NCBI GenBank assembly: GCA_964616075.1
Contig: CAZTRA010000002.1
Location: forward strand, 40,473 to 96,352
From: an uncultured Candidatus Saccharibacteria bacterium
GTDB lineage: Bacteria; Patescibacteriota; Minisyncoccia; Phycocordibacterales; DSPV01
DNA: 55,880 nt
Direction: 5' to 3'
Shown here: one piece after another, positions 25,948 through 50,600 of the stretch
How positions within the stretch are numbered: position 1 is the stretch's first letter
How the letters are laid out: each line of letters begins with the position of its first letter
Translations under genes and position numbers: made by a program
Notes under the pieces: generated by a model
Database searches by the model: none
What the model saw: the letters and a program-made list of their open reading frames with translations, nothing else
What the model was told of the DNA's origin: nothing

Positions 25948-26565
25948 ATGAAAAAGAATAAAAAAAGTCAGACACGCGATATAGATTTTTTGTTTGAGGT
26001 TGGGTCGTTGCGTGCGGCACAACGTGCGTGGGCGCAGCTGTTTGGCGGGCTCAAGACGGCAACGATACTTGAGCATATGTTTCGGGTAGCGCTGCTTGCT
26101 TTGATTATTGCTCGCCGTGAGGGTGTTGTGGTTGATGAGGGTAAAATGCTCCAGATGGCACTACTCCATGATTTACCTGAGTCTCGTACGGTTGACCATG
26201 CCCATGTACATAAGGCGTATGTGAAAGAAGATGAAGATCGGGCAATTCATGATTTATTTTTGGGTACAGCTATTGCAACGCGTGCCAAGGATGTGCTCAA
26301 AGAATACAAAGAACGTACCTCTCTTGAAGCAAAGATAGTGAAAGACGCTGATAATATTGATATTGATCTGGAATTTAAAGAGCTCGAGGAGCGTGGTTCT
26401 AAGGTGCCGGCCAAGCAGCAGCACTTTCGTCGTGTGGTACGAGAGGAGAAATTGTATACCAAAGCAGCTCGTGAGCTGTGGGACGAAATTCAAACAGCGG
26501 ATCCCGATGCGTGGCAAACGAGCACGAATACGTGGCTCGCTTCCGGTAAAGGTCACGGCCGATAG
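25948..26565 (+). CDS. HD-domain phosphohydrolase (YfbR-like 5'-deoxynucleotidase type).
   Basis: LEHMFRVALLA ... LLHDLPESRTVD ... DADNID, the HD-superfamily metal-ligand pattern. Confidence 0.75.
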   Translation: MKKNKKSQTRDIDFLFEVGSLRAAQRAWAQLFGGLKTATILEHMFRVALLALIIARREGVVVDEGKMLQMALLHDLPESRTVDHAHVHKAYVKEDEDRAIHDLFLGTAIATRAKDVLKEYKERTSLEAKIVKDADNIDIDLEFKELEERGSKVPAKQQHFRRVVREEKLYTKAARELWDEIQTADPDAWQTSTNTWLASGKGHGR

Positions 26566-26603: not shown

Positions 26604-28289
26604 ATGCAAGATATCGTACGTCAGGTGATAGAAAGAGCACTTTCGGTGCTTTCGATAGGCGATGTTTCGTTTGTGGTTGAACGACCGGGCGATCTTTCTC
26701 ATGGGGATTATGCGACAAATGTGGCTCTGGTTGTTTCAAAACAGTTGAAGCAGTCGCCGCGCACGGTTGCTGAGCGCGTAGCGGCGCTTATACAGGAGCA
26801 GGCGGTGCCCGTTATTGCTACCGTGACGGTGGCTGGTCCGGGATTTATCAACATCACGCTCCAGCCAGATTATTTTGAGCAGACTGTTGCTGCGGTATGT
26901 TCTCAAAAAAAAGCGTACGGAAAAGGAACTTTGTATAACGGTAAAAACGTTATTGTTGAGTATACAGACCCCAACCCATTTAAAGAGTTGCACATTGGTC
27001 ACGTGATGAGCAATGCGATCGGTGAGTCGATCGCGCGAGTGATTGCTTGTGCGGGGGCGCACGTGATACGAGCAAGCTATCACGGTGATGTGGGGCTTCA
27101 TGTGGCAAAGGCGCTGTGGGCTTACCAGAAACAAGGGAACAATGATTTGTCGTACTTGGTGTCTGGTAAGGCGTATGCCGATGGAAACCGGGCATTTGAA
27201 GAAGATGTTTCAGCGAGAAAGGAGATTGAACACACAAATAAACTCGTGTATGAGCGTACCGATGAGCAGGTGAATGCCGCGTATGACGCGGGGCGTACCG
27301 CTTCGTTTGATTCGTTCTACCGCTATCTAGCTAAGATCGGTACGACGTTTGATATGAAATTTTATGAGAGCGAATCCGGGCCGATTGGTAAGGCGCTCGT
27401 TGAGTCCAATATTGGTAACGTCTTTGAACAAAGCGAAGGGGCAGTCGTTTTCCCTGAAGAAAAGTCCGGTTTGCATACGCGTGTATTTCTTAATTCTCAC
27501 GGACTTCCCACGTATGAGGCAAAAGAGCTTGGTTTGGCAAAACTGAAGGCGGAGCGGTGCCCGTTTGATACCTCGATTGTGGTAACCGGAAACGAGATTA
27601 ATGACTATTTTAAGGTCTTGCTTCGGGCCATGGCGCTCTTGATGCCTGATGTTGCGGCAAAGACGCTCCATGTGTCTCATGGTATGTTGCGGTTGCCTAC
27701 GGGGAAGATGTCGTCACGTACCGGAACGGTTGTTACCGCAACGCAACTGTTTGATGAGGTACAAAAAGCGATTATAGGTCGCATGCAAGAGCGGGGCTTG
27801 TCCCCTGCTGAGCTTGAAGCGGTGTCTTGGCAGATTGCGGTTGCTGCGGTGAAGTATTCTATTTTGCGTCAGTCACCGGGGTCTGACATTATCTATGACT
27901 TTGAAAAATCTATCTCGGTTGAGGGTGATTCTGGTCCTTATGTTCAATATACCGCGGTTCGTGCGCGCTCTGTTGTTCGCAAAGCTGCTGAGCAGGGAAT
28001 ACCGATCGTCATAACTCGACCCACTGATGAGTACTTGTCTGTGGTTGAACGTTTGATACCTCGGTTTCCGGAAATCGCGTCTCGCGCGGCGTCTGAGCTC
28101 GCGCCGCATCACGTTGCAAATTATTTAATTGAACTTTCTTCAGCGTTTAATAATTTTTACACCACTACAGTGATTATCGGTGAAAAAACTGAGACAACGT
28201 CGTACCGTGTGATGCTCACAGATGCAGTTGCGACTGTGTTGGAGAATGGCCTTGCGTTATTGGGTATCGAAGTACCTATCAAGATGTAG
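26604..28289 (+). CDS. argS: Arginine--tRNA ligase.
   Basis: An N-terminal Arg_tRNA_synt_N-like region, a class I HIGH-type motif (ELHIGHVMS), and a DALR anticodon-binding C-terminus ending in M. Confidence 0.9.
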   Translation: MQDIVRQVIERALSVLSIGDVSFVVERPGDLSHGDYATNVALVVSKQLKQSPRTVAERVAALIQEQAVPVIATVTVAGPGFINITLQPDYFEQTVAAVCSQKKAYGKGTLYNGKNVIVEYTDPNPFKELHIGHVMSNAIGESIARVIACAGAHVIRASYHGDVGLHVAKALWAYQKQGNNDLSYLVSGKAYADGNRAFEEDVSARKEIEHTNKLVYERTDEQVNAAYDAGRTASFDSFYRYLAKIGTTFDMKFYESESGPIGKALVESNIGNVFEQSEGAVVFPEEKSGLHTRVFLNSHGLPTYEAKELGLAKLKAERCPFDTSIVVTGNEINDYFKVLLRAMALLMPDVAAKTLHVSHGMLRLPTGKMSSRTGTVVTATQLFDEVQKAIIGRMQERGLSPAELEAVSWQIAVAAVKYSILRQSPGSDIIYDFEKSISVEGDSGPYVQYTAVRARSVVRKAAEQGIPIVITRPTDEYLSVVERLIPRFPEIASRAASELAPHHVANYLIELSSAFNNFYTTTVIIGEKTETTSYRVMLTDAVATVLENGLALLGIEVPIKM

Positions 28290-28393: not shown

Positions 28394-28402
28394 TGTTACA
28401 AT
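28394..28402 (+). promoter_or_regulatory. Extended -10 promoter element TGTTACAAT upstream of ileS.
   Basis: Same 20-mer as at glyA. The first ATG of the track ORF (28401) lies inside the hexamer. Confidence 0.55.
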
Positions 28403-31400
28403 GCCGGCACGTATTGCTATGGCAGAAAAATCATACAAACAAACAGAACAGAAGGCGACACCACTGAATCCTTTTCCTGCTATTGAAAAGGATATGCTCG
28501 CGTTGTGGCAAAAAGAGCAGGTTTTTACTGCAACACTAAAAAAAGAATCTCCCAAAGGGGAGTATGTCTTTTATGATGGTCCGCCGTTTGCTAGCGGTGA
28601 ACCACATTATGGGCATATCCTTGCGGGTACGATCAAAGATGTGATTCCACGATTTCGTACGATGCAGGGGTACCATGTGCCGCGTCGATGGGGGTGGGAT
28701 TGTCATGGATTGCCGGTTGAAAATTTGGTAGAGAAGGAGTTGGGATTAAAGACAAAGAAAGATATTGAAGATTACGGTATTGAGAAATTTAATGCTGTTG
28801 CAAAGGAGAGTGTGATGCGTTTTGCCGATGATTGGCGGAAGGTTATTCCGCGCATGGGTCGTTTTGTTGATATGGAAAATGATTACAAAACGATGGATCC
28901 GTCTTACACCCAGAGCGTGTGGTGGGCGTTTAAGGAGCTCCACAAGAAAGGATTACTCTATCAGGGTTTTAAACCGATGCATATTTGTCCGCGGTGCGAA
29001 ACAACACTTTCGAATTTTGAAGTGACACAGGGGTATCAGGATATTAAAGATGTGTCTGCGTATGTGAAGTTTAAGGTAAAGAATCCAGAGAAACTTCCGT
29101 TGTCTAAAGATGCTGATACGAATGTTTATTTTCTTGCATGGACTACGACACCTTGGACTCTCCCAGGTAATGTGGCACTTGCGGTAGGTGCAGATATTGA
29201 TTATGTGGCTTGTATTTTTGGTAAAGATATCTATGTTGTTTCTCAACAAGCATATACGCGAGGAATTTTTGATGGAAGTAGTGAGTCAGTTATGTTGCAA
29301 ACATGGCAAACTCCCAGAGATCTTGTGATAAAGGGTGCTGATCTTGGAAAATGTAAACTTGAATATGAGCCTCTTTTTTCCTACTACGTTCATGATACAA
29401 AACTCAAGCATTGTGAGAACGGATGGAAGGTGTATGCCGCTGATTTTGTAACGACCGATGATGGTACGGGCGTGGTACACATCGCACCGGCATTTGGTGA
29501 GGATGATATGAATCTTGGCCAGAAGGAACAGCTGCCGTTTGTGCAGCATGTCGGCATGGACGGACGCTTTGTCGATCGCGTTATTGATTTTAAAGGTGAG
29601 AGCGTTAAGCCAAAAGGTCATCATATGGAAACTGATCGCAAGGTGGTGGCGCATCTTGAGTCTGTGGGGTTGTTGTTTAAAACAGAAGAAATTACTCACT
29701 CATATCCGCATTGTTGGCGTTGTGATACACCACTTCTTAACTATGCAACTTCTTCATGGTTTGTGCGTGTTACCGATATTAAAGATGTCTTGGTACATCA
29801 AAACGAAACAGTGACATGGGTTCCTCCTGAGGTTGGTTCCGGACGGTTTGGTAAATGGCTTGAAGGTGCTCGTGATTGGGCCATCTCACGTTCTCGTTTT
29901 TGGGGCGCACCAATTCCTGTATGGGAGTGTGCGACATGTAAGAAGCAAGAGGTGATTGGAACTTTTGCTGAATTGAAGGCAAAACTACCAACGAGAAATC
30001 GTTACTTCATTGTTCGCCACGGTGAGGCGGAAAATAACACTAAAGGTCTGGTGAGTTCACACGTTGATGCCCCGCACCATCTCACGGAAAAAGGGAAAGC
30101 ACAGGTGCAAAAGGCGGCACGGCGTCTTGCAGGGGAGCGTGTTGATGTCATTATTACTTCGCCACTCATTCGTACGCGAGAAACCGCTGATATTATTAGG
30201 GCGGAGCTTGGGTTACCTGCCGAGGTGGTCCACCTTGAAAAGCGGTTTGCGGAAGTTGCCGGAGGTGATTTTGAGGGGAAGTCAGTCGATGCTTACCGTG
30301 CCTATTTTACGACTCACGGGAGCCGTTTTGTGACACGTCCACCGGGAGGTGAGTGCCAGGCTGACGTCCGAGCTCGTGTGGTTGCCGCGCTCCATGATAT
30401 TGATGCGCGTTATGAGGGTAAGACGATCGTACTCGTGTCCCATGAGACACCGTTGTGGCTTATGGAGATGACCGCTGAAGGATACGATCGGCGACAAGCC
30501 GAGCGTTTATGGAATGAACGGCCGATTGATTTTATTGGTAATGCGGAAGTTCGCGAAATAGTGTTGGCACCATTGCCGAACGGCAGAGATGGAGAGATTG
30601 ATGTCCATCGTCCGTACATTGATGGCGTGCTGTATGCCTGTACGTGTGGTGGTACGATGCGGCGTGTACCGGAGGTGTTTGATTGCTGGTTTGAATCAGG
30701 TTCGATGCCGTATGCAGAATCTTGTTTTGTTGGTACAGGCACACCAACATTTTCTCCGACACAGCAGTACGGGTATCCTGCCGATTTTATTGCTGAAGGC
30801 CTGGATCAGACGCGCGGCTGGTTCTATTCGCTTATTGTTCTTGGTACAGCGTTGTTTGGGGCGTCTCCTTATAAGCAAGTTATTGTGAATGGTTTAATTC
30901 TTGCCGAGAATGGTCAAAAAATGTCTAAGCGACTCAAGAATTATCCGGATCCATTACTGGTGGTTGATACGTATGGTGCTGATGCGCTTAGGCTATACCT
31001 TATGTCGTCTCCTGTTGTGCACGGTGAAGATTTGCGCTTTTCACAGCGAGCGGTCGAAGAGATTATGCGAAAGACGCTTGGACGGTTACATAATTGTCTG
31101 CAGTTTTTAAAATTACAGGCGTCCGATGAGCGAGCTCCGCTCGTACGTCCTGAAAGCGAACACATACTCGATCATTGGGTGTGTGTCCGTTTGTCTCAGG
31201 TTGCCGAAGAAGTGACCAGTGCTCTTTTGAAGGGAGAACTTGATCGGGCAGTGCGGCCACTGCATGCGTGGGTTGATGATCTGTCTGTCTGGTATGTTCG
31301 TCGTTCACGCGATCGTTTCAAAAGCGACGCACTCTCTGATCGGGCGACTGCTGCAGCTACGCTTTCGTATGTGCTTGCTCAAACAGCGATACTGTTCGCG

Positions 31401-32000
31401 CCGTTCGCACCTTTTTATGCTGATTATTTGTTTAGAATGGTGCAGGGGTCAGAAACAAGTGTGCACCTTTCTGCGTGGCCCACATACAAGACATTAACAC
31501 CCGGAGATCATGCATTGCTCACTAATATGGTGTCGGTTCGTGAAGTCGTTTCTCTTGCACTGGAGGCCCGCGCACGTGCGAATATTAAGGTGCGCCAGCC
31601 ACTGGCGGCGCTAACCATTAAAGGTCCCGATCATCTCTTTTCTCAAGCTCTCCTCTCTCTTATTGCTGAAGAGGTGAATGTGAAGGAGGTGCTGTGTCAG
31701 AGCGCGCAATCAGAACCCGTAGTGCTTGATACGGTTATTACTCCAGAATTGAAGGCAGAAGGCGATCTCCGCGAGTTTATTCGAGCAGTGCAAGATCTTC
31801 GTAAAAAGGCCGGTTTAAAGCAGGGTGAGCCCGCTACGCTCGTGGTTTTCGGGGAGGGTGCAGAAACCGCTATTGCTGCACTAAAAGATAGGATAAGAGA
31901 TGTTGCTACAATTACTGACTGTGTGTTTGAACAGGTGTCTGGCGAAGAGGTCACATTAGGCGATGTGCAGTTGCATCTTGCAGTACGAAAGGCTATTTAA
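28401..32000 (+). CDS. ileS: Isoleucine--tRNA ligase (type 2-like) carrying an in-frame histidine-phosphatase (PGM-family) domain insertion.
   Basis: HIGH motif PHYGHILAG, a CP1 editing region, KMSKRLKNYP, and DCWFESGSMPY. The ~198-aa insertion at nt 30000..30593 carries RHGEAENN, SPLIRTRETA and LVSHETPL. If TACAAT at 28397..28402 is the -10, the real start is probably ATG 28419 (MAEKSYKQ). Confidence 0.9.
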   Translation: MPARIAMAEKSYKQTEQKATPLNPFPAIEKDMLALWQKEQVFTATLKKESPKGEYVFYDGPPFASGEPHYGHILAGTIKDVIPRFRTMQGYHVPRRWGWDCHGLPVENLVEKELGLKTKKDIEDYGIEKFNAVAKESVMRFADDWRKVIPRMGRFVDMENDYKTMDPSYTQSVWWAFKELHKKGLLYQGFKPMHICPRCETTLSNFEVTQGYQDIKDVSAYVKFKVKNPEKLPLSKDADTNVYFLAWTTTPWTLPGNVALAVGADIDYVACIFGKDIYVVSQQAYTRGIFDGSSESVMLQTWQTPRDLVIKGADLGKCKLEYEPLFSYYVHDTKLKHCENGWKVYAADFVTTDDGTGVVHIAPAFGEDDMNLGQKEQLPFVQHVGMDGRFVDRVIDFKGESVKPKGHHMETDRKVVAHLESVGLLFKTEEITHSYPHCWRCDTPLLNYATSSWFVRVTDIKDVLVHQNETVTWVPPEVGSGRFGKWLEGARDWAISRSRFWGAPIPVWECATCKKQEVIGTFAELKAKLPTRNRYFIVRHGEAENNTKGLVSSHVDAPHHLTEKGKAQVQKAARRLAGERVDVIITSPLIRTRETADIIRAELGLPAEVVHLEKRFAEVAGGDFEGKSVDAYRAYFTTHGSRFVTRPPGGECQADVRARVVAALHDIDARYEGKTIVLVSHETPLWLMEMTAEGYDRRQAERLWNERPIDFIGNAEVREIVLAPLPNGRDGEIDVHRPYIDGVLYACTCGGTMRRVPEVFDCWFESGSMPYAESCFVGTGTPTFSPTQQYGYPADFIAEGLDQTRGWFYSLIVLGTALFGASPYKQVIVNGLILAENGQKMSKRLKNYPDPLLVVDTYGADALRLYLMSSPVVHGEDLRFSQRAVEEIMRKTLGRLHNCLQFLKLQASDERAPLVRPESEHILDHWVCVRLSQVAEEVTSALLKGELDRAVRPLHAWVDDLSVWYVRRSRDRFKSDALSDRATAAATLSYVLAQTAILFAPFAPFYADYLFRMVQGSETSVHLSAWPTYKTLTPGDHALLTNMVSVREVVSLALEARARANIKVRQPLAALTIKGPDHLFSQALLSLIAEEVNVKEVLCQSAQSEPVVLDTVITPELKAEGDLREFIRAVQDLRKKAGLKQGEPATLVVFGEGAETAIAALKDRIRDVATITDCVFEQVSGEEVTLGDVQLHLAVRKAI

Positions 32001-32005
32001 TTTTT

Positions 32006-32590
32006 GTGTACCACTTTCACCACACAGAAGCGATTGTTATTGCTACGCGACCGCTGAAAGAATCAGATAGGCGATTGCGCTTATTTACTCGTGAACTGGG
32101 TGTCGTAACGGCGACTGCAACGGGAGTTCGATTATTGCAATCTAAATTACGTTACGCATTACAGCCATATACGCTGGTAACACTTGTTATGGTTCATGGT
32201 AAACAGGGATGGCGTGTTACTAATGCGGTACCTAGAGCATCTCTTTTTATTAAAGAGGGACGGGAGAAATCTCGTCGAACTATTATTTCTTTGCTTGGTT
32301 TTATTGCAAGGTTTCTTCCAGAAGGTGTTGCAGAAAAGAACTTGTTTGATTTTGTGTGTGCATCGTTCCAGCATATTTTGGAGGGTATGATTGTGGGGGA
32401 GGACGAGATGATGGTTCGATTGATATGTGAATATAAAACATTGTATACGTGTGGATATATTGCAGCCCCCACTTCATTTCAGTCTCTTTTGAAAATCGAA
32501 GTGCCGTCTGATGCCTTATCATTTGCAGCCCCCATTAAAAAACATCTGCATGATGCTGTTGTGCAAGGGGTCACCGCGAGTCACTTGTAG
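32006..32590 (+). CDS. recO: DNA repair protein RecO (short form).
   Basis: GTG start. The N-terminal OB-fold pattern is HTEAIVIATRPLKESDRRLRLFTRELGVVTATATGVR...YTLV. No zinc-finger segment. Confidence 0.7.
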   Translation: MYHFHHTEAIVIATRPLKESDRRLRLFTRELGVVTATATGVRLLQSKLRYALQPYTLVTLVMVHGKQGWRVTNAVPRASLFIKEGREKSRRTIISLLGFIARFLPEGVAEKNLFDFVCASFQHILEGMIVGEDEMMVRLICEYKTLYTCGYIAAPTSFQSLLKIEVPSDALSFAAPIKKHLHDAVVQGVTASHL

Positions 32591-32615
32591 GTGCATGTTA
32601 GAATAGGTGACACCT

Positions 32616-34613
32616 ATGGATGGTAAGAATGATTCACAATCAAACGAGTCGGCCCCCGATGTTTCTTTGTCAGATGAACCAAAAAAGACATTTCCAAGTG
32701 GTCGTATTGCTGAAGTTGAACGCTCACTTCAGTCACGTGAAGGTCCACAGTTTACAGAAGAGCACACCCCCCTTCCGCGGCGCGTTGTGACGATCGCAGA
32801 AGGGTGGCAACATGAACAGGAGGATACGTCCATTCCCTTTATTAAACAGTCGGTTTCTAAGCATCTGCTTATGAAGACGTTTCTTATTGCGTCACTTATT
32901 TTTTTCTTTGTTGCAACAGGGTTCTCCGCAGCGGTTTTTTATCGGCAGGCAAATGTTGTGTCGACTGAGAATTTACATATGATCATTGGTGCTCCGCTTG
33001 CAGTAGCTGGAGGTGAAGAGGTTTCGCTTGAGGTGACTATTGAAAATGGCAATACGGACGATATTGAGTCTGCAAACCTGCTTATGACGTTTCCTGATGG
33101 GACACGCACGATTGAAGATTTGTCTGCTGATATACCACGGTTACGAGAAACGATCGGAGATATTCCTGCAGGGGAACGTGTTTCAAAAACAGTAAAACTT
33201 GCATTTTTTGGCACCGAGAAAGAGGTAAAAAAAATTACGGTTGAGTTGAATTATCGCCTGAAGGGCAGCAATGCGGTTTTTTCGAAGAAAAAAGAGGTTT
33301 CACTTGAGCTTGCAACATCACCTATTTCTTTTTCGGTGAATGTGCTCAAACAATTGAGTGCAAATCAGTTGTTTGAGTTGATCGCAACAGTGGCCTCGAA
33401 CGCTAAATCGACTGTGAACGGAGTGTTGCTTGAGGTGCAATATCCCTTTGGATTTACATTTGTTTCTGCTGATCCTCCGACTGCAAACAGTACCAATGAT
33501 TTGTGGCAGTTAGGTGATATTGCTCCGGGTGAACGTCGAACGGTCCGTATTAAAGGACGTCTCACCGGTCAAAATGACGATGCGAGAGCTTTCCGTTTTG
33601 TTGCGGGAGACAGTGACCGTTTTGATCAAAAGAAGATGGAAACCATTTTTGTGACTCATACAGAAGAGCTTGCAATTCAAAAACCTTTTATCGGCCTCGA
33701 TCTACAATTCGATGGCTCGACCGCCGGTCAGGAGTATGCCTTTCCTGGAGGACGGGCTATTAAAGGTTTTGTAAAATGGAAACATAATCTTGCTACACGA
33801 ATTGCGGATGTGGTTATTGAGGTAAAGGTAAAAGGAGGGATGCTTGATCGACCAACAATACAGGCGTCAAACGGTTTCTATCGTTCAATCGATGATACGA
33901 TCGTCTTTGATAGAGCGACGGATGATGCCTTCGCGCTTTTAAATCCTGGTGACGAAGGAACCTCCGCATTTTCGTTTTCATTTGTGCCACCCACAAAGGC
34001 TGCTGATTTGTTTTTACAAAATCAAGAACTTACCTTTGAGGTAAGTGTCCGTGGTCGCCGTATGTCTGGAGAAACAGCGATTGAATCGCTTCAAAATAGT
34101 CTTACTAAGCGTGTTAAAGTTTCTTCAGATATTAATCTTTCATCACGAGCTTCTTATAGTGGCGGGTTTATTACTAACTGGGGGCCGATCCCGCCTCGTG
34201 CTGAGCAACCGACGCGATATACTGCAACATGGTCTATTACGAACACATTCAACGTAGTCGATGATGTGCAGGTTATTTCTCCAACTTTACCAACATATGT
34301 ACGTTGGACGGGGGTAACTTATCCACCATCTGAAGATATTAAACTCTTGGACAATGGTTCTATTGTATGGAACGTTGGCGAAGTGAGGCCATATACTGGG
34401 TACGTAACCCCTGCGCGGGAAGTACATTTTCAGGTTGAAATTTTGCCAAGCATTACACAAGTGGGTGCGGTCCCTATGCTTGTGCAACCTGCGGAGTTGA
34501 ATGGAACAGATTTATTTACTAATGTACGTTTGTATGCGACAGGAAACGGTATGTCGACGTTGATTTCAACAGATCCTATTTATAACAAGGGGGACGAATT
34601 TGTGACACAATAA
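32616..34613 (+). CDS. Large single-pass membrane protein with repeated beta-sandwich (CARDB/DUF11-like) modules.
   Basis: One TM helix (LIASLIFFFVATGFSAAVFY). Motifs recur in the pattern GDIPAGERVSKTVKL, GDIAPGERRTVRIKG, LNPGDEGTSAFSF. I prefer ATG 32616 over GTG 32607, because TGTTAGAAT at 32596..32604 would put the transcript start after 32607. Confidence 0.7.
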   Translation: MDGKNDSQSNESAPDVSLSDEPKKTFPSGRIAEVERSLQSREGPQFTEEHTPLPRRVVTIAEGWQHEQEDTSIPFIKQSVSKHLLMKTFLIASLIFFFVATGFSAAVFYRQANVVSTENLHMIIGAPLAVAGGEEVSLEVTIENGNTDDIESANLLMTFPDGTRTIEDLSADIPRLRETIGDIPAGERVSKTVKLAFFGTEKEVKKITVELNYRLKGSNAVFSKKKEVSLELATSPISFSVNVLKQLSANQLFELIATVASNAKSTVNGVLLEVQYPFGFTFVSADPPTANSTNDLWQLGDIAPGERRTVRIKGRLTGQNDDARAFRFVAGDSDRFDQKKMETIFVTHTEELAIQKPFIGLDLQFDGSTAGQEYAFPGGRAIKGFVKWKHNLATRIADVVIEVKVKGGMLDRPTIQASNGFYRSIDDTIVFDRATDDAFALLNPGDEGTSAFSFSFVPPTKAADLFLQNQELTFEVSVRGRRMSGETAIESLQNSLTKRVKVSSDINLSSRASYSGGFITNWGPIPPRAEQPTRYTATWSITNTFNVVDDVQVISPTLPTYVRWTGVTYPPSEDIKLLDNGSIVWNVGEVRPYTGYVTPAREVHFQVEILPSITQVGAVPMLVQPAELNGTDLFTNVRLYATGNGMSTLISTDPIYNKGDEFVTQ

Positions 34614-35952: not shown

Positions 35953-37053
35953 ATGCAAAAAGGAGTGCTACATATTTCCATTTCTGCTGGCTCAATTTCC
36001 CGCATTATTTTTCTTTGTACACTGTTTTACTTGTTATATGTATTGCGAGATTTAGTATTAGTGGTGATTACCGCAGTGGTTCTTGCTTCGGCTGTAGAAC
36101 CTGGTGTGTTGTTTGGGAAGCGATATAAGGTGAATCGATTAATGTCGGTGATTGTTATGTATGCTATGGCGGCTGTGTTACTAGTTTCGGTATTTTATTT
36201 TTTTGTACCGGTACTGTTAAACGATGTCAACACACTTTTATCATCGCTACCACAATATGTCGATAGTATCTCGGTGTGGAATCCCTTTTCTGATTCTGCA
36301 ACAGTTGGACTTGGAAAGGCTAAAGAATTCGCTGAAGGTATTGGCTTACAAACTCCGATGGCCGCTACGTCTGGGGAGACAGGGATGTTAGTGACAATGG
36401 CGAAGATTTCTCGGGCAATCTCAGAAGGAGGCACTATCCAGGCAATAAGTTATTTTTTTGGTGGGTTTCTTTCACTTGCACTTATTATTGTGTTGTCTTT
36501 TTATTTGGCAGTGCAGGAAAATGGTATTGAGAAGTTTTTGAGGATCGTTATTCCTCGTCGATATGAAGCCTATGTTATTGGTTTGTGGCAACACTCACAA
36601 GAAAAAATCGCACTGTGGGCACAGGGACAGTTTGTGTTGGCGCTTGTAGTAGGCGTTTTGGTGTATATGGGACTATCGCTTTTGGGTGTGCGTAATGCAC
36701 TATTGTTTTCGCTCATTGCCGCACTTTTTGAGCTTATACCACTTTTTGGTCCACTCCTCGCGGCTATTCCGGCGGTTGTTGTTGCGGTCATTGATAATGG
36801 GCTATCTGGAGGTGTTGCGGTTATGGTCTGGTATATCATTATTCAGCAGTTTGAAAATCATTTGATTTATCCGCTTGTGGTACAGAAAATTGTTGGGGTA
36901 TCTCCCATTATTGTGATTATTGCTTTGGTTGCCGGATTGCAGTTGGCTGGATTTCTCGGAGTATTACTCTCTGTACCTATTGCTACGGTATTGGTTGAAG
37001 TGCTTAATGACGTTGAACGCCGAAAAGCCAGCAAAACCGATGATGAGTCATGA
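35953..37053 (+). CDS. AI-2E family transporter (PerM/UPF0118).
   Basis: Seven to eight TM helices and the characteristic ELIPLFGPLLAAIP...QQFENHLIYPLVV motif. Confidence 0.85.
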   Translation: MQKGVLHISISAGSISRIIFLCTLFYLLYVLRDLVLVVITAVVLASAVEPGVLFGKRYKVNRLMSVIVMYAMAAVLLVSVFYFFVPVLLNDVNTLLSSLPQYVDSISVWNPFSDSATVGLGKAKEFAEGIGLQTPMAATSGETGMLVTMAKISRAISEGGTIQAISYFFGGFLSLALIIVLSFYLAVQENGIEKFLRIVIPRRYEAYVIGLWQHSQEKIALWAQGQFVLALVVGVLVYMGLSLLGVRNALLFSLIAALFELIPLFGPLLAAIPAVVVAVIDNGLSGGVAVMVWYIIIQQFENHLIYPLVVQKIVGVSPIIVIIALVAGLQLAGFLGVLLSVPIATVLVEVLNDVERRKASKTDDES

Positions 37054-38495
37054 GTAATCAAAAACCGTTTTATATCACGACGACACTCCCGTATGTGAAC
37101 GCTGATCCCCATATCGGTTTTGCTATGGAAATCATTCGGGCTGACAGCGTGGCCCGTTACCATAAGGGGAGGGGAGAAGAAGTGTTCTTTAATACGGGAA
37201 CTGACGAGCATGGACTTAAGGTGTATCGCAAGGCGCAAGAGGCGGGTCTGTCTCCCGAAGTTTATGTACAGCCGTACGCTGAAAAATTTAAATCGTTGCG
37301 GGAACCTTTGGGGCTCTTACCGGAATTACACTTTATTCGGACGACTGACGCACACCATGTCTACGCAGCACAGGAGTTTTGGAAAATTTGTTATCGCAAC
37401 GGCTATATCTACAAAAAGACGTACCGGGTAAAGTACTGTGTCGGGTGCGAACTTGAAAAAACTGATTCAGAACTGGTTAATGGGCGCTGTTCAATTCATT
37501 CGACGACTGAGCTTGAGCTCATTGATGAAGAAAATTATTTTTTCAAATTTTCTGCTTTCGGTGACAAGTTACTTGATTTGTACGCAGAGCGTCCTGATTT
37601 GGTGATTCCGTCGATGCGCCAGAATGAGATTCGCGCATTCGTATCGCGCGGTCTGGAAGATTTCAGTATCTCGCGCTTGAAGGAAAAAATGCCGTGGGGT
37701 GTTCCAGTGCCGGGAGATGAAGCACATGTAATGTACGTATGGTTTGATGCGCTCGTAAACTATATTTCAGCGATCGGGTGGCCTTCGAACCTCGACACTT
37801 TTCATCGGTTTTGGGTAGAGGCGGGTGGGGTGGTGCAGTATTGTGGTAAAGACAATCTCCGTCAGCAGGCGGCGATGTGGCAGGCGATGCTCATGTCGGT
37901 GTCGCTCCCACCAAGCAAACACATTATTATCAATGGGTTTGTCCTTTCCGGTGGCCAAAAAATGTCAAAATCAATTGGCAATGTGATCGACCCGTTTGCG
38001 GTCGTGCGTGAGTATGGTACGGATGCGTTGCGTTATCTGGTGCTGCGAGAACTCTCCTCATTTGAAGATGGAGATGTAACCATGGAGAAAGTAAAAGAGG
38101 TGTATAACGGTGGTTTAGCAAACGGCATTGGAAATTTAGTGTCACGTGTCCTCAAGATGGCAACAACAAACGGTGTGGTGTTAGGTGTAGAGGAGGTTGT
38201 GTCGACAGACGATGCCCCCTACCATGAAGCATTTGCTGCGTATGATATAAAGCGCGCAGCTGATTATGTGTGGCAATATGTACAAAATGTCGATGTTTTC
38301 ATACAAGAGACGCAGCCGTTTAAAGTAGTGAAGGGAGATCCGGTGCATGGTAAAAAGTTGATACACGATTTGCTCGTACGCGTTGCGCACCTAGCAGTGT
38401 TACTGGTTCCTTTGTTGCCGCAGACCGCCGAGACGATACAGCAGCATGTTCGCGGTGGCACGATGCCCCCGGCGCTCTTTCCGAGAAAAGAATAA
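37050..38495 (+). CDS. metG: Methionine--tRNA ligase (short form, no C-terminal tRNA-binding domain).
   Basis: LPYVNADPHIGFAME (HIGH-type), a CxxC...C knuckle and KMSKSIGN. There is an ATGA overlap with the upstream gene. Confidence 0.9.
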   Translation: MSNQKPFYITTTLPYVNADPHIGFAMEIIRADSVARYHKGRGEEVFFNTGTDEHGLKVYRKAQEAGLSPEVYVQPYAEKFKSLREPLGLLPELHFIRTTDAHHVYAAQEFWKICYRNGYIYKKTYRVKYCVGCELEKTDSELVNGRCSIHSTTELELIDEENYFFKFSAFGDKLLDLYAERPDLVIPSMRQNEIRAFVSRGLEDFSISRLKEKMPWGVPVPGDEAHVMYVWFDALVNYISAIGWPSNLDTFHRFWVEAGGVVQYCGKDNLRQQAAMWQAMLMSVSLPPSKHIIINGFVLSGGQKMSKSIGNVIDPFAVVREYGTDALRYLVLRELSSFEDGDVTMEKVKEVYNGGLANGIGNLVSRVLKMATTNGVVLGVEEVVSTDDAPYHEAFAAYDIKRAADYVWQYVQNVDVFIQETQPFKVVKGDPVHGKKLIHDLLVRVAHLAVLLVPLLPQTAETIQQHVRGGTMPPALFPRKE

Positions 38496-47469: not shown

Positions 47470-47632
47470 CAACAATATAGTGAGTCAGCTTGTTCTGTCC
47501 CAAAGTGGGAACACTTTGCGGTACGGTACGAGAGTTGATGAACGTACATTTCTCTCCACGTCGAAGAGAAGGTACGTAACTTCTACAGTCCGTTCATTAC
47601 TATTAGAAGTTAATTACAAGTTTTGTTTAGTC

Positions 47633-50600
47633 ATGTCTATCACATATAAATCAAAGACGAAGCAATTCGTTGGAGGATTGCTCGGCCTCTCAATGGCCGT
47701 GTCGTTTGTTTTCGGCGGTGCAGTTGCACCGGCGCAAGCCGCGACAGCTGAGGAGCTCCAGGCGCAAATCGCCAGTCTTCTCGCAACGATCTCTTCTCTA
47801 CAGGCTCAGCTTTCAACGGTGAGTGGCCCATCAACAGGCCCTTCAACCGGTTATGTTTTCAGTCGAAACCTTAAGCAGGGTGACAGCGGCGATGATGTTA
47901 AGAATCTTCAAAAGGTTCTCAACATGAGCGCAGACACCCGTGTCGCTTCAACAGGTGCAGGTTCTCCAGGTATGGAGACCACCACTTTTGGTCCTGCGAC
48001 CAAAGCGGCAGTCATCAAGTTTCAGAACAAGTACGCAGCTGAAGTACTCAGCCCGGTAGGTCTTTCAACTGGTACAGGTTTTGTTGGTGCAGCAACGCGC
48101 GCCAAGTTGAGCGCAATGGGCGGTTCAACTACTGGTTCAACCAGTGGTTCAACTACCGGTTCAACTGGCGGTGTCACAACACCAGTTCCGACAGGTACTG
48201 GTCTTATGGTCAGCAAGCCTGAGCAGCCAGCAGTTTCTTTGGCACCGGCAAACGCAGCACGCGTTCCGTTTACCAAGGTAACCTTCACGGCAGGCTTTGA
48301 CGGCGATGTTCGTATCAACGGCATCGTTGTTGAGCGCGGTGGTCCTTCAACCAACTCTGACTTCTCTGGTATTGTCCTCTTGGACAGTAATGGCGTACAG
48401 GTTGGTATTGCAAAGACTCTGAACTCAAACTATCAGACAACGTTGACTGAACCTCTCACGATTCCTGCCGGTCAGTCACGCACGTACACCATTGCCGGTA
48501 ACATGGGTTCATCGGTTGGTGCAGGAAATATTGCAACCCTTTCAGTTGTGGGTATAAACACGCCGGCAACTGTGACGGGCTCACTCCCAATCACGGGTAC
48601 TGCACAGACAATTAACGGGGTACTCTCAATTGGCTCAGTAACAATGCAGCGTGGCTCCACCGATCCAGGTGCAGCACAGACAAAAGAAGTTGGTACTACC
48701 GGTTACACCTTCTCAGGTGTACGTGTGACTGCAGGTTCAACCGAAAAGGTTGTCTTGAAGTCAATTCGTTGGAACCAGATCGGTTCAGCTTCATCAGCTG
48801 ACCTTTCAAACGTGAAGACGTACGTTGATGGCACCGCCTACGACGTAGTGGTGTCATCAGATGGTAAGTACTACACTTCAACCTTCGGTTCAGGTATCCT
48901 CATTGATAAGGGTTTCTCAAAGGAGATTTCAATCAAGGGTGATATCACTGGCGGTTCACAGCGCACGATTGCATTTGATATTGCAAAACGTGCAGATATC
49001 GGTGTTGTAGGTGAAACTTACAACTTCGGCATCATTCCGCCTCAGACAAACTCATGTGGTGGTTCAAGTGGCGTGAGCTGCTTCACCAACACGGAGGACC
49101 CATGGTATGACGGCGCAACAGTGACAGTCAGCACAGGTACTATCACGGTATCATCTGACTCTGCGGTCGCCGCTCAGAATCTTGCAGTCAATGTGCAAAA
49201 TCAAGTCCTTGGTGGTTTCCAGGTTGAAGTACGTGGGGAGCCGGTTTCAGTCGGCCGCATCGTCTTCAATGTATTTGCTAACGGTAATACAGTAGAGGAC
49301 CTTGAACAGGTTACGATCGTTGATCAGAACGGTGCGGTTATTGCCGGTCCGGTCGATGGTTCTGGAACAGGTCAGGGTGGTACTCTCACCTTCACTGATA
49401 CAGTTACTTTCCCAGTTGGTATCACAAAGATCCAGCTTAAGGGTAAGTTGAACACTGATTTCGTGTCATCAGATACGGTTCAGGCTTCAACAACCGCTTC
49501 ATCACAGTGGACAACGGTGACAGGTCAGAACACGAACAACACTATTACGCCTTCACCAGCAAGCGCGGTGACTGCGTCATTGATGACAGTCAAGGCTTCA
49601 GCACTCTCGGTCAGTGTTTCATCACAACCGACAGCTCGCAGCGTAATCGCTGGTTCACAAGGCTTTGAGTTTGCTCAATATATCTTCGATGCATCTCAGT
49701 CAGGTGAAGATATTCGTGTGACTTCTATCCCGCTCGCACTCTATACGGTAACTGTTACTTCGAATCAGTTGACCAATTGTCAACTCTTTGACGGCGCAGC
49801 TGCAGTCACCTCAGGTAGTAACTTGGTGAATCCGAGCTCGAATAGCTCAAGCACCACGTTCACCTTTGATGGCACAGGTCTCGTTGTTTCAAAGGGTTCC
49901 TCAAAGACCATTTCTTTGAAGTGTAACGTCTCAACGGCGGCAACTTCAGGTACGGTTCAATGGGGTCTTGACTCAGGTCAGCAGTCAAGTTACGCCGCAG
50001 CAACTGGTTTGACCTCAGGTCAGACTGTGTCTGAGACACTCAATGATTCATTGGGTACGATCATGACTGCTGCAACCGGTGGTAGCTATACAGTGACGTC
50101 AGACTCAGCAGTTACGTACACAACTGCACAAGCTGGTGCTACGGGTGTTACACTCGCATCACTTAAGTTTGCTGCAGGTACGAACGAAGATGTTTGGCTC
50201 CGCCAGATTGCACTCCAGCTCTCAAATACCGCTTCAAACTCACCAGCAGACCTTGTTGGTCAGTCGGTGACGCTTTGGAATGGTGCAACGCAGGTTGGTA
50301 CGGCCCAGTTTGGTTTGAGTTCTGGTGATAATGCCACCTCAACGCTCTCTGGTAATGGTGTTCTGTTGTCGAGCAATGGTAACCCAGTCACGATTACCGT
50401 GAAGGGTAACCTCTCAGCACACAGCGCTGTTGAGGGTACGCCGGGCGCATTCGTGGTAGTGAATTATGATGGTGACAACAACGGTATTAACGGTAACTAC
50501 GGCGTCGGTGCGTCATCAGGTACAAACGTTTCTGGTTCTTCAGCTGATACGTCAGTCCCTGGTCTTCGTGTCTTCCGAACTGTTCCAGTACTCGCAGTCA

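What the first reader, a model, noticed from the sequence alone, without database searches (positions are those of the whole stretch)
30000..30593. Complete histidine-phosphatase (PGM/SixA/CobC superfamily) domain inserted in frame inside isoleucyl-tRNA synthetase
The insertion lies between the IleRS segment ...FWGAPIPVWECATCKKQEVIGTFAELKAK and ...[40 protein letters not shown]. In type-2 IleRS I recall these flanks being only a few tens of residues apart. Here there is a ~198-codon insertion. It carries the hallmark motifs of branch-1 histidine phosphatases, in the right order and spacing. RYFIVRHGEAENN holds the catalytic Arg-His-Gly (nt 30015..30023). SPLIRTRETA follows, then FAEV..GDFEG, then IVLVSHETPLW with the second catalytic His at nt 30441. 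There is no stop or frameshift. The HIGH and KMSKS motifs and the editing domain are intact, giving a 1199-aa product. The catalytic residues are preserved, so the insert looks functional rather than a relic. An aminoacyl-tRNA synthetase with an embedded phosphatase is, to my knowledge, undescribed. Candidate roles include acting on tRNA 2',3'-cyclic or 3'-phosphate ends, on adenylated or polyphosphate nucleotides made by the synthetase, or regulating it.
Basis: partly seen in the sequence, partly recalled or inferred. Interest (0 to 1): 0.8.

Follow-up and report, generated by a model that had tools for sequence, protein, structure and literature searches.

The report
Histidine phosphatase nested inside IleRS
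The isoleucyl-tRNA synthetase gene here really does carry a complete, apparently active histidine-phosphatase domain inside its catalytic core; this is a widespread, apparently undescribed trait of Patescibacteria (CPR bacteria), in which related lineages encode the same phosphatase as a separate gene abutting ileS, pointing to an unknown phosphatase function tied to tRNA charging.

Summary
Confirmed. ORF 28401-32000 (+) encodes a 1199-aa type-2 IleRS with intact HIGH, KMSKS and editing motifs. A complete branch-1 histidine phosphatase (PF00300, E=6e-38, aa 536-703) replaces a ~7-residue loop of the CP3 subdomain. It is not an artefact: all 120 best homologs, and at least 177 species genomes, share the architecture, and the phosphatase catalytic residues never vary. 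The new result is that the phosphatase is a dedicated IleRS partner. In related Paceibacteria it is a free-standing ~190-aa gene immediately upstream of an insert-less ileS in the same argS-ileS-recO synteny (64 of 80 species loci; 42 within 20 nt). Across 161 loci the nested and split forms never co-occur. Other lineages nest the domain at two further IleRS sites, in tandem, or in CP3 of ValRS (70 of 119 Gracilibacteria/Peregrinibacteria ValRS). The substrate is unknown. The fold is closest to the small phosphatases PhoE, CobC and PspA. Full-text searches found no paper describing it, and public records name the protein only "isoleucine--tRNA ligase". Verdict: observation confirmed, interpretation partly supported, a new variant of multi-domain aaRS, interest about 0.7.

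The parts
28401..32000 (+). ileS CDS, 1199 aa: type-2 isoleucyl-tRNA synthetase with a nested histidine phosphatase
   Evidence: Single ORF. TIGR00392 scores 860 bits against a cut-off of 621. Best PDB match by sequence is T. thermophilus IleRS 1ILE, E=4e-206.
28605..28616 (+). Class I HIGH signature (HYGH, aa 69-72)
   Evidence: H69 and G71 are invariant in 121/121 homologs.
29139..29156 (+). CP1 editing-domain motif WTTTPW (aa 247-252)
   Evidence: Invariant in 121/121.
29928..29939 (+). First half of the CP3 zinc-knuckle-like motif, C-A-T-C (aa 510-513)
   Evidence: Aligns with the CxxC of T. thermophilus IleRS. Cys is present in 100/121 close homologs and in about half of divergent ones. 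PMC7191050 reports a zinc-binding motif in the CP3 of T. thermophilus IleRS.
29988..30596 (+). Whole insertion relative to canonical IleRS2 (aa 530-732), nested in the CP3 loop
   Evidence: Query 529 and 733 align to 1ILE residues 480 and 488, and to yeast IleRS residues 496 and 498. Insert length across homologs is 195-210 aa.
30000..30575 (+). Histidine phosphatase (His_Phos_1, branch 1) fold, aa 534-725
   Evidence: PF00300 E=6e-38. AF2 pLDDT 92.7. Foldseek top hits are PspA 4IJ6, CobC 6E4B, PhoE 1H2E and GpgP 4PZ9, with TM-score (target-normalised) 0.72-0.78.
30015..30023 (+). Catalytic R539-H540-G541 (His540 is the phospho-acceptor by homology)
   Evidence: Invariant in 121/121 and 80/80. 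Aligns with the RHG motif of PhoE.
30171..30173 (+). R591, second phosphate-binding Arg
   Evidence: Invariant.
30252..30254 (+). E618, putative proton donor
   Evidence: 121/121; 78 E and 2 D in the divergent set. Its role as proton donor is inferred from alignment to PhoE and from general knowledge of the superfamily.
30351..30353 (+). E651 of the conserved GGE motif
   Evidence: Invariant.
30441..30443 (+). H681, second catalytic His
   Evidence: Invariant.
30639..30647 (+). Second half of the CP3 knuckle, C-T-C (aa 747-749)
30918..30929 (+). KMSKS-type loop (KMSK, aa 840-843)
   Evidence: K840 and K843 are invariant.
26604..28289 (+). argS (arginyl-tRNA synthetase), conserved upstream neighbour
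   Evidence: Pfam. Present upstream in 52/80 nested loci and 70/80 loci of the second set.
32006..32590 (+). recO-like gene, conserved downstream neighbour
   Evidence: RecO_N. Present in 63/80 loci. The same gene order is seen in split-type loci.
32607..34613 (+). DUF11-like protein, conserved downstream neighbour
   Evidence: Present in 60/80 loci.

Best explanation
This is the native, housekeeping type-2 IleRS of a Patescibacteria (Parcubacteria/Paceibacteria-type) bacterium. A compact PhoE/CobC/PspA-like branch-1 histidine phosphatase is nested in the tip loop of the CP3 subdomain of the Rossmann fold. That gives one polypeptide three catalytic sites: synthetic, CP1 editing and phosphatase. 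The phosphatase is not a random passenger. It is the fused form of a dedicated IleRS partner protein. In related lineages the partner is a separate ~190-aa gene whose stop codon abuts or overlaps the ileS start, and in others it is nested at different sites of IleRS or in CP3 of ValRS. Shown: the domain identity, its completeness, the invariance of its catalytic residues, the complementary split/nested distribution, the recurrence of fusion, and a confident, rigid-looking structural prediction. Inferred: the domain hydrolyses a phosphomonoester through a phospho-His540 intermediate, and its substrate is something IleRS/ValRS also handle. My committed but low-confidence guess (~0.25) is a nucleotide-type phosphomonoester. 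One candidate is a blocking phosphate on the terminal ribose of tRNA-Ile. Another is a nucleotide product or effector of the reaction (AMP, PPi or an alarmone-like 3'-phosphate). Removing it would keep aminoacylation going.
For: Domain calls and cut-offs. The exact insertion point in CP3. All 120 best homologs carry PF00300, and at least 177 species genomes do. The insert-only profile finds 430 representative clusters at E<=1e-30. Catalytic residues are invariant in 121 + 80 sequences, while the insert as a whole is only ~47% identical pairwise, similar to the anticodon and C-terminal domains. Free-standing orthologs lie directly upstream of an insert-less ileS in the same argS-ileS-recO-DUF11 synteny. 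In 80 species loci, 64 are split with ileS downstream, 12 are nested and 4 are unresolved. Of the 64 split pairs, 42 are <=20 nt apart, including 15 overlaps. In 161 loci, 93 are nested only, 61 have a free copy plus a plain IleRS, 7 have a free copy only, and none has both. Additional insertion sites B and C, and tandem copies, all keep intact catalytic residues. Seventy of 119 ValRS homologs carry 1-3 copies, mostly at the CP3-equivalent site. AF2 of the full protein gives pLDDT 91 and pTM 0.84, with well-predicted junctions. The structurally closest solved proteins are small phosphatases, ranked ahead of the longer mutases.
Against: No biochemical data exist and no substrate can be read from the sequence. 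The insert is slightly acidic (mean net charge -1.7), so it does not look like an RNA-binding surface. Insertion at three or more different sites argues against a need for one precise geometry. CP3 also hosts an unrelated DUF559 domain in a Gracilibacteria IleRS, so the site is structurally permissive. IleRS and phosphatase evolutionary distances correlate only weakly (r=0.23). A general tRNA 3'-end repair role does not obviously explain restriction to IleRS and ValRS. Some ValRS copies appear to have lost the second His or the Glu. The distance from the phosphatase site to the synthetic site, editing site or tRNA could not be measured, because the tools return no coordinates.
Confidence: 0.6

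Rival explanations
1. Metabolic hitch-hiker. The domain is an essential small-molecule enzyme unrelated to aminoacylation. It could be the apparently 'missing' phosphoglycerate mutase of some Parcubacteria, or a phosphoserine, sugar or nucleotide phosphatase. It happened to lie next to ileS and was captured into structurally permissive loops. Once nested it cannot be lost (constructive neutral evolution).
For: Jaffe et al. 2020 report PGM as apparently absent from several shallow Parcubacteria clades. The second-best NCBIfam hit of the insert is the short archaeal dPGM model (78.9 bits). CP3 tolerates other insertions such as DUF559. Multiple insertion sites suggest that geometry is not critical. 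The domain is not basic.
Against: Every functional NCBIfam model scores far below its cut-off: dPGM_arch 79 against 225, CobC 76 against 163, PspA 71 against 350. The stretch between E618 and E651 (~33 aa) is short, as in the phosphatase PhoE, whereas mutases have a longer segment there (the comparison with mutases rests on general knowledge). Fusion of the same subfamily recurs at three or more IleRS sites and in ValRS, alongside a tightly coupled operon form with strict complementarity. That pattern is hard to explain without a functional link.
Confidence: 0.25
2. Protein phosphatase. The domain dephosphorylates IleRS or ValRS itself, for example reversing an inhibitory Ser/Thr/His phosphorylation by a toxin-type or regulatory kinase, or it dephosphorylates a bound partner protein. 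Precedents in the superfamily are SixA, Sts-1 and PGAM5.
For: One-to-one tethering or translational coupling fits an activity acting in cis. The domain has no C-terminal capping tail, because the free-standing forms end right after the last strand. It is established knowledge, not tested here, that bacterial toxin kinases inactivate aaRSs (HipA on GltX, HipT on TrpS).
Against: No kinase is conserved in the neighbourhood. The domain keeps the small PhoE-like cap region that is typical of small-molecule enzymes. SixA is only a weak partial match, 43 bits against a cut-off of 74.5. Phosphorylation of IleRS or ValRS is not documented as far as I know.
Confidence: 0.08
3. Non-catalytic module. The fold serves as a structural, tRNA-binding or ligand-sensing (phosphate-metabolite) domain that modulates IleRS without turning over a substrate.
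For: Some ValRS copies have substitutions at the second His (N in 10/83) and at the Glu position. Tandem and multi-copy forms exist.
Against: In IleRS the full catalytic set R, H, R, E, E, R, H is invariant in about 200 sequences, in almost every copy of the double-insert forms, and largely in the free-standing partners. That is the signature of selection for catalysis.
Confidence: 0.05
4. Assembly or annotation artefact: a chimeric contig or a mis-joined gene.
For: None beyond the slightly higher G+C of the insert (0.53 against 0.44-0.49 in the flanks).
Against: The same junctions occur in hundreds of independent assemblies from NCBI, JGI, ENA and Logan, at 50-93% identity. The G+C excess is mainly at codon position 1, reflecting amino-acid composition, and GC3 (0.47) lies within the range of neighbouring genes.
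Confidence: 0.01

Closest known systems
Type-2 (IleRS2) isoleucyl-tRNA synthetase, e.g. T. thermophilus IleRS (PDB 1ILE) and P. megaterium IleRS2 (8C8U)
   Same: Full set of domains and motifs: HIGH, KMSKS, CP1 editing, a CP3 with a Cys knuckle, Anticodon_1 and a DUF5915 C-terminus. It passes the TIGR00392 equivalog cut-off.
   Different: About 203 extra residues forming an enzyme domain replace the ~7-residue CP3 tip loop.
Small branch-1 histidine phosphatases: PhoE (1H2E/1EBB), phosphoserine phosphatase PspA/iPSP1 (4IJ5/4IJ6), CobC (6E4B, 6NRU), GpgP Rv2419c (4PZ9)
   Same: Same fold and catalytic residues (RHG, Arg, Glu, His), similar size (~190 aa) and a short cap region. Foldseek E~1e-14 with TM-score 0.7-0.78.
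   Different: Only 23-28% identical and below every NCBIfam functional cut-off. It forms its own tight subfamily, 430 clusters at E<=1e-30 against 26,335 at E<=1e-10. That subfamily is always encoded next to or inside ileS or valS.
NCBIfam NF040702 'isoleucine--tRNA ligase, N-acetyltransferase domain-containing' (ileS_w_GNAT)
   Same: A precedent for an IleRS carrying an additional enzyme domain, recognised by a curated model.
   Different: The extra domain is a GNAT, not a phosphatase. The window protein scores 355 bits against a cut-off of 1999, so it is not a member. No curated model passed its cut-off for the phosphatase-containing form beyond generic ileS.
Bifunctional RNase H / acid phosphatase (PRK07238; M. 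tuberculosis Rv2228c type)
   Same: A nucleic-acid enzyme fused to a CobC-like histidine phosphatase. It is the best NCBIfam hit of the insert, at 93.8 bits.
   Different: That is an end-to-end fusion, not a nested one, with a different partner enzyme. The score is well below the cut-off of 326. From memory, the functional link in that protein is also unresolved.
Nested hydrolytic domains of aaRSs (CP1 editing domain of IleRS/ValRS/LeuRS; INS domain of ProRS)
   Same: A second catalytic domain inserted into the Rossmann fold of a synthetase and acting on a ligand of the same enzyme.
   Different: Those domains hydrolyse aminoacyl esters and are ancient and near-universal. This one is a phosphomonoesterase fold restricted to Patescibacteria, and it also exists as a separate gene.

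Membership tests
Isoleucyl-tRNA synthetase (TIGR00392, class Ia) | Whole-protein score above the curated equivalog cut-off | tested here: met
   860.2 bits against a cut-off of 621.4.
Isoleucyl-tRNA synthetase (TIGR00392, class Ia) | HIGH and KMSKS signature motifs | tested here: met
   HYGH at aa 69-72 and KMSK at aa 840-843, conserved across 121 homologs.
Isoleucyl-tRNA synthetase (TIGR00392, class Ia) | CP1 editing domain with the Thr-rich motif and the GTG.VH.AP motif | tested here: met
   WTTTPW is invariant; the GTGVVH positions G355, V359 and H360 are invariant and the other three vary conservatively. The region aligns to the isolated T. thermophilus editing domain 1WK8.
Isoleucyl-tRNA synthetase (TIGR00392, class Ia) | Aminoacylation of tRNA-Ile | not testable with these tools
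   Inferred from sequence only.
Type-2 IleRS (IleRS2) | Closer to T. thermophilus / eukaryote-like IleRS than to IleRS1, with a C-terminal DUF5915-type domain in place of the IleRS1 zinc-binding C-terminus | tested here: met
   1ILE E=4e-206 and 8C8U E=4e-199, against S. aureus IleRS1 1FFY at E=7e-89. DUF5915 at aa 1071-1197.
Histidine phosphatase superfamily, branch 1 (PF00300) | Score above the Pfam gathering threshold | tested here: met
   130.9 bits against 21.7, E=6e-38.
Histidine phosphatase superfamily, branch 1 (PF00300) | RHG motif with the nucleophilic His, two Arg, a second His and an acidic proton donor | tested here: met
   R539, H540, G541, R591, E618, E651, R659 and H681 are all present and conserved.
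Histidine phosphatase superfamily, branch 1 (PF00300) | Complete alpha/beta fold including the last strand | tested here: met
   AF2 pLDDT 92.7. Foldseek TM-score (target-normalised) up to 0.78 against PspA, PhoE and CobC.
Histidine phosphatase superfamily, branch 1 (PF00300) | Phosphomonoesterase or mutase activity via a phospho-His intermediate | not testable with these tools
   Needs an enzyme assay.
Cofactor-dependent phosphoglycerate mutase (dPGM) | Equivalog-level score, plus the long substrate-binding segment and the H-G-N motif after the second His | tested here: not met
   dPGM_arch scores 78.9 against 225; pgm_1 scores 29.6 against 81.7; the GpmA models score at most 32 against more than 300. 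The residues after H681 are H-[NED]-x-P. The E618-E651 segment is ~33 aa, as in PhoE. The mutase-specific residues are recalled from general knowledge.
Alpha-ribazole phosphatase CobC (TIGR03162) | Score above the equivalog cut-off | tested here: not met
   75.6 bits against 162.9.
Phosphoserine phosphatase PspA (NF045917) | Score above the equivalog cut-off | tested here: not met
   71 bits against 350.
Phosphohistidine phosphatase SixA (TIGR00249) | Score above the cut-off and the minimal ~160-aa architecture | tested here: not met
   43.2 bits against 74.5, and only the N-terminal ~70 residues match.
IleRS with GNAT domain (NF040702) | Score above the exception-model cut-off | tested here: not met
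   355.5 bits against 1999.
Mupirocin-resistant IleRS MupA / MupB (NF000257 / NF000258) | Score above the cut-off of 1900 | tested here: not met
   624 and 678 bits.
Known anti-phage defence proteins (PADLOC) | Any model hit | tested here: not met
   No hits for the full protein or the insert.

The most novel reading that the evidence does not exclude
Patescibacteria have a previously unrecognised phosphatase-dependent step coupled to charging of tRNA-Ile and tRNA-Val. A dedicated histidine phosphatase docks on IleRS or ValRS, or is nested in it. It removes a phosphate from a shared ligand: the tRNA (terminal or internal ribose phosphate), a nucleotide product or effector, or the enzyme itself. 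These synthetases would then be three-active-site machines. This would be a new class of aaRS accessory activity, comparable in kind to the discovery of editing domains.
Probability: 0.3. Interest if true: 0.85.

Novelty: new variant of a known kind. Interest (0 to 1): 0.7.

Why it matters
Aminoacyl-tRNA synthetases are among the best-studied enzymes, and their accessory catalytic domains (the editing domains) changed how translation fidelity is understood. In this case a catalytically intact phosphatase is bound to IleRS, and in other lineages to ValRS, across a large part of the Patescibacteria. The association has arisen or been rearranged several times: as an operon pair, at three or more nesting sites, and as tandem copies. 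That recurrence is a classic Rosetta-stone signal of a shared function, yet no phosphatase step is known in aminoacylation. The question is directly testable, because the free-standing ~190-aa partner and its cognate IleRS should be easy to express. The answer could reveal a new tRNA or nucleotide repair or regulation step, or a missing metabolic enzyme of these reduced-genome symbionts. Practically, the pattern defines a clean subfamily (430 clusters at 50% identity) that current annotation names only as 'isoleucine--tRNA ligase', 'class I tRNA ligase family protein' or 'hypothetical protein'.

Tried and rejected
1. Assembly chimera or recent horizontal insertion. Rejected. The architecture recurs in hundreds of assemblies. 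The G+C excess of the insert lies mainly at codon position 1, and GC3 is normal.

2. Assigning a specific function through NCBIfam equivalogs (CobC, PspA, dPGM, SixA, GpmB, acid phosphatase). All score far below their cut-offs.

3. A link to anti-phage defence. PADLOC gave no hits.

4. A free-standing paralog in the window or in nested loci. None was found, apart from one weak, truncated generic hit in L002.

5. A conserved third partner gene between the phosphatase and ileS. The 13 larger gaps hold heterogeneous accessory genes, including NUDIX, radical-SAM-like, Fic-like and PLP-enzyme-like (by eye from the translations).

6. A basic, RNA-binding surface. The mean net charge of the insert is -1.7.

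7. A single origin of the nested state. Bootstrapped NJ trees need 6-10 state changes on the IleRS tree, against ~43 for shuffled labels. The trees are crude and the IleRS/phosphatase distance correlation is weak (r=0.23), so I do not claim a number of events within Paceibacteria.

8. Literature. Eight full-text searches and targeted reading of three IleRS structure or evolution papers and one CPR metabolism paper found no description of the fusion. One further search failed on syntax.

9. Geometry of the phosphatase pocket relative to the synthetic site, editing site and tRNA. This could not be obtained, because the structure tool returns no coordinates, and the IleRS-tRNA paper I searched does not say where CP3 sits relative to the tRNA.

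10. The profile of 28 free-standing proteins was too diverse for the genome scan, so it was repeated with 8 closer sequences.
Full report
OBSERVATION. The window holds one uninterrupted ORF at 28401..32000 (+) of 1199 aa. Pfam finds a class I synthetase catalytic domain split in two (tRNA-synt_1, E=9e-134). It also finds His_Phos_1 (PF00300) at aa 536-703 with E=6.2e-38 (130.9 bits against a gathering score of 21.7), then Anticodon_1 and DUF5915. NCBIfam's ileS equivalog TIGR00392 scores 860 bits against a cut-off of 621.

The alignment to T. thermophilus IleRS (1ILE) stops at query 529 / Tth 480 and resumes at query 733 / Tth 488. The yeast enzyme gives residues 496 and 498. So about 203 residues (nt 29988-30596) replace a loop of about 7 residues. 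That loop lies between the CxxC (aa 510-513) and CxC (aa 747-749) halves of a knuckle. The published C. albicans IleRS paper places CP3 at residues 473-534 of that enzyme and says T. thermophilus CP3 carries a zinc motif (PMC7191050). Since the yeast break point is 496/498, the phosphatase is nested in CP3. AlphaFold2 folds the insert as a complete domain (pLDDT 92.7, pTM 0.90). It folds the whole protein with pLDDT 91.0 and pTM 0.84, with junction blocks at about 93-95 (N side) and 82-95 (C side). This suggests a fixed orientation, not a floppy tether.

NOT AN ARTEFACT, NOT UNIQUE. All 120 best homologs (50-93% identity; NCBI, JGI, ENA and Logan) have PF00300 in their precomputed domain lists. 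Named sources include Paceibacterota, Magasanik-, Yonath- and Niyogibacteria. A scan of one genome per GTDB species found at least 177 genomes encoding the insert. The lineages include Taylor-, Zambryski-, Nomura-, Adler- and Colwellbacteria. Insert length is tightly constrained at 195-210 aa.

The phosphatase residues R539, H540, G541, R591, E618, E651, R659 and H681 are invariant in 121/121 close homologs. In 80 more divergent sequences they are again invariant, except E618, which is E in 78 and D in 2. Overall pairwise identity of the insert is only ~0.47, against ~0.70 for the Rossmann core and 0.42-0.55 for the anticodon and C-terminal domains. This pattern indicates purifying selection on catalysis. 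The slightly higher G+C of the insert comes mainly from codon position 1, and GC3 is within the range of neighbouring genes. Gene order argS-ileS-recO-DUF11 is conserved in 52-63 of 80 loci, so this is the native ileS locus.

WHAT KIND OF PHOSPHATASE. By sequence the closest solved proteins are PhoE (1EBB/1H2E, E~2e-14), phosphoserine phosphatase PspA (4IJ5) and CobC. By structure the top Foldseek hits are PspA, CobC, PhoE, GpgP (Rv2419c) and a riboflavin-pathway phosphatase, with TM-scores of 0.7-0.78. These rank ahead of the longer dPGM mutases. Every function-specific NCBIfam model scores far below its cut-off. The domain is therefore a compact PhoE-like phosphomonoesterase of unassigned specificity. 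PADLOC gives nothing.

THE KEY CONTEXT. An insert-only profile searched against 1.84 billion representative proteins finds 430 clusters at E<=1e-30. These are not only fused IleRSs. They include a coherent set of ~190-aa proteins that start with Met, lack IleRS motifs and score as high as the nested domains.

Looking up four of them gave the same answer four times. The gene lies directly upstream of an ileS that lacks the insert (931-985 aa where complete, with a normal 4-7-residue CP3 loop). It sits in the same argS-[phosphatase]-ileS-x-recO-DUF11 synteny, with the stop and start codons abutting (TAAtATG) or overlapping by 10 nt.

A species-genome scan with a profile of these proteins found 223 genomes. 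Of the best 80 loci (Staskawicz-, Nealson-, Wolfe-, Wildermuth- and Colwellbacteria and others), 64 have a free-standing phosphatase with ileS downstream on the same strand. Twelve have the nested form. Four show no ileS, and in two of those the phosphatase ORF runs to the contig end. Of the 64 pairs, 42 are <=20 nt apart, including 15 overlaps. Thirteen are separated by heterogeneous accessory genes.

Across 161 loci the two configurations are strictly complementary. Ninety-three are nested only, 61 have a free copy plus a plain IleRS, 7 have a free copy only, and none has both. This is a textbook Rosetta-stone pattern.

RECURRENT FUSION. The domain is also nested elsewhere in IleRS.
- Site B lies between the [12 protein letters not shown] and FPADFIAEGxDQTRGWF motifs (query ~775-796). 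It is seen in P0151, P0173 and P0135.
- Site C is the loop just before the anticodon-binding domain (query ~914-926). It is seen in P0151, P0158 and P0173, in two Peribacteria genomes (L174, L175) and in a Gracilibacteria genome (L176).
- P0153 has two tandem copies in CP3.

The double-insert protein P0151 occurs on six contigs of up to 1.06 Mb. Its precomputed Pfam string reads tRNA-synt_1 / His_Phos_1 / tRNA-synt_1 / His_Phos_1 / Anticodon_1. Nearly every copy keeps the catalytic residues.

The association also extends to ValRS. A Gracilibacteria genome (L254) encodes a protein that passes both valS equivalog cut-offs (882 against 704; 781 against 612) and has two tandem copies at the CP3-equivalent position. 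Among 119 ValRS homologs from Gracilibacteria and Peregrinibacteria, 70 carry one to three copies, and 73 of the 83 copies are at that position. Some ValRS copies appear degenerate: the second His is Asn in 10, and the Glu position is non-acidic in about 25. These figures depend on alignment to the IleRS-insert profile.

Within Paceibacteria the nested-versus-split state is strongly clustered on rough NJ trees, with ~8 changes (bootstrap range 6-10) against ~43 for shuffled labels. It is not a single transition, and both states occur with both HxGH and G/AxHH signature motifs. I treat the number of events inside this class as unresolved. The different insertion sites and the ValRS case are independent events by construction.

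MECHANISM. Shown: (i) a bona fide, complete IleRS; (ii) a complete histidine-phosphatase fold with an invariant catalytic apparatus; (iii) a tight, complementary and recurrent genetic association of this phosphatase subfamily with IleRS and ValRS.

Inferred: the domain is an active phosphomonoesterase working through phospho-His540. Because separate, adjacent and variously nested forms are interchangeable, it works together with the synthetase, most simply on a ligand they share.

The candidate ligands carrying a terminal phosphate are these: a 2'- or 3'-phosphate on tRNA (terminal A76 or an internal ribose), the 5'-phosphate of AMP, PPi, alarmone-type 3'-(pyro)phosphates, or phospho-residues of the enzyme itself. 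I commit to a nucleotide or tRNA-linked phosphomonoester as the most likely class, at only about 0.25.

Points against a simple tRNA-end-repair reading: the domain is slightly acidic; the insertion sites are spread along the sequence; CP3 also accommodates an unrelated DUF559 domain; and a general repair function would not obviously be limited to IleRS and ValRS.

The main rival, at about 0.25, is an unrelated essential metabolic enzyme captured by a neighbouring gene. A concrete version is the phosphoglycerate mutase reported as apparently missing from several shallow Parcubacteria clades (PMC7304191). The PhoE-like short cap and the sub-threshold dPGM scores argue against a mutase but do not exclude it.

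COMPARISON WITH THE KNOWN. The IleRS part is an ordinary IleRS2. The phosphatase part belongs to PF00300 but to none of the characterised subfamilies tested. Curated precedents for extra enzyme domains on related proteins are NCBIfam's 'ileS_w_GNAT' model and the RNase H/acid-phosphatase fusion PRK07238. The window protein meets neither cut-off.

Full-text searches pairing IleRS or aaRS with histidine phosphatase, with CPR or with Patescibacteria found nothing describing this architecture. Two recent evolutionary and structural surveys of IleRS contain no mention of phosphatase or Patescibacteria. The proteins have been public since at least 2015 under generic names. The library does not cover all subscription journals, so 'undescribed' means 'not found'.

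VERDICT. Novelty: a new variant of a known kind (multi-domain aaRS). Interest: 0.7.

Noticed in passing
Loci L006, L017, L023, L040-L042, L046, L047, L058, L087, L091 and others (IleRS N-termini). The window protein itself has HYGH at 28605-28616.: Many of these Patescibacteria IleRS carry the non-canonical G/AxHH signature in place of HxGH: 20 of 80 in the first set, and 58 of 136 in the combined tree set (23 nested, 35 split). Brkic et al. 2023 (PMC10485003) showed that this swap confers mupirocin hyper-resistance in IleRS2. It occurs in both nested and split forms.
   Followed up: partly
L176:2-3541 (Gracilibacteria IleRS), aa 359-462; also ValRS homologs P0326 and P0348: A DUF559 domain (PF04480, described from memory as a Vsr-like endonuclease fold) is inserted in frame at CP3 of an IleRS that also carries the phosphatase at site C. 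PF04480 also appears in two ValRS homologs. CP3 seems to be a general hot-spot for domain insertion in CPR class Ia synthetases.
   Followed up: partly
P0121 / L172:366-3851; P0290 (1477 aa); P0346 (1538 aa); P0351 (1626 aa): Some ValRS proteins carry three or more phosphatase copies. P0121 has three full copies and one partial copy, and seems to lack the KMSKS and anticodon parts on its 3.9-kb contig, so it may be a split or truncated gene.
   Followed up: partly
P0199, P0223, P0235, P0251, P0267 (363-415 aa); L171: Free-standing two-domain (tandem) versions of the same phosphatase subfamily exist. The one context examined (L171) has a TrbP-like gene downstream, not ileS.
   Followed up: partly
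L143 (Nealsonbacteria), phosphatase ORF 389-970: This is the one clear exception to the ileS adjacency. The free-standing phosphatase lies next to what looks like a ValRS gene on the opposite strand (judged by eye from the translation), with no ileS in the 5.4-kb locus.
   Followed up: no
Contigs of 630,865 bp (L175 / P0386) and 439,541 bp (P0277 / P0377): Matching contig lengths suggest that genomes whose IleRS carries the phosphatase have a ValRS without it. This hints that each genome may attach the phosphatase to only one of the two synthetases.
   Followed up: no
L096-L137: gaps between the phosphatase gene and ileS: In 13 split loci, 0.4-1.9 kb of unrelated genes have been inserted between the two partners. 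By eye from the translations these include a Fic-motif protein, a NUDIX protein, a radical-SAM-like protein and a PLP-enzyme-like protein.
   Followed up: partly
window 47480-51172 (+): A 1230-aa ORF whose only Pfam match is a weak, sub-threshold PG_binding_1 hit. It is a large uncharacterised protein, possibly associated with the cell surface.
   Followed up: no
window 37050-38495 (+) and 25948-26565 (+): A short MetRS of 481 aa lies in the same aaRS-rich region. An HD-domain protein with a weak, sub-threshold YfbR-like 5'-deoxynucleotidase match sits just upstream of argS. A tRNA-His gene lies at 2814-2886.
   Followed up: no
L049 (labelled 'Spirochaetia bacterium' MAG): A fused IleRS-phosphatase sits on an 8.5-kb contig of a MAG labelled Spirochaetia. 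The bin may be contaminated, since all other carriers are Patescibacteria. Spirochaete IleRS2 is, however, the closest insert-less relative of the Peribacteria-type enzyme.
   Followed up: no
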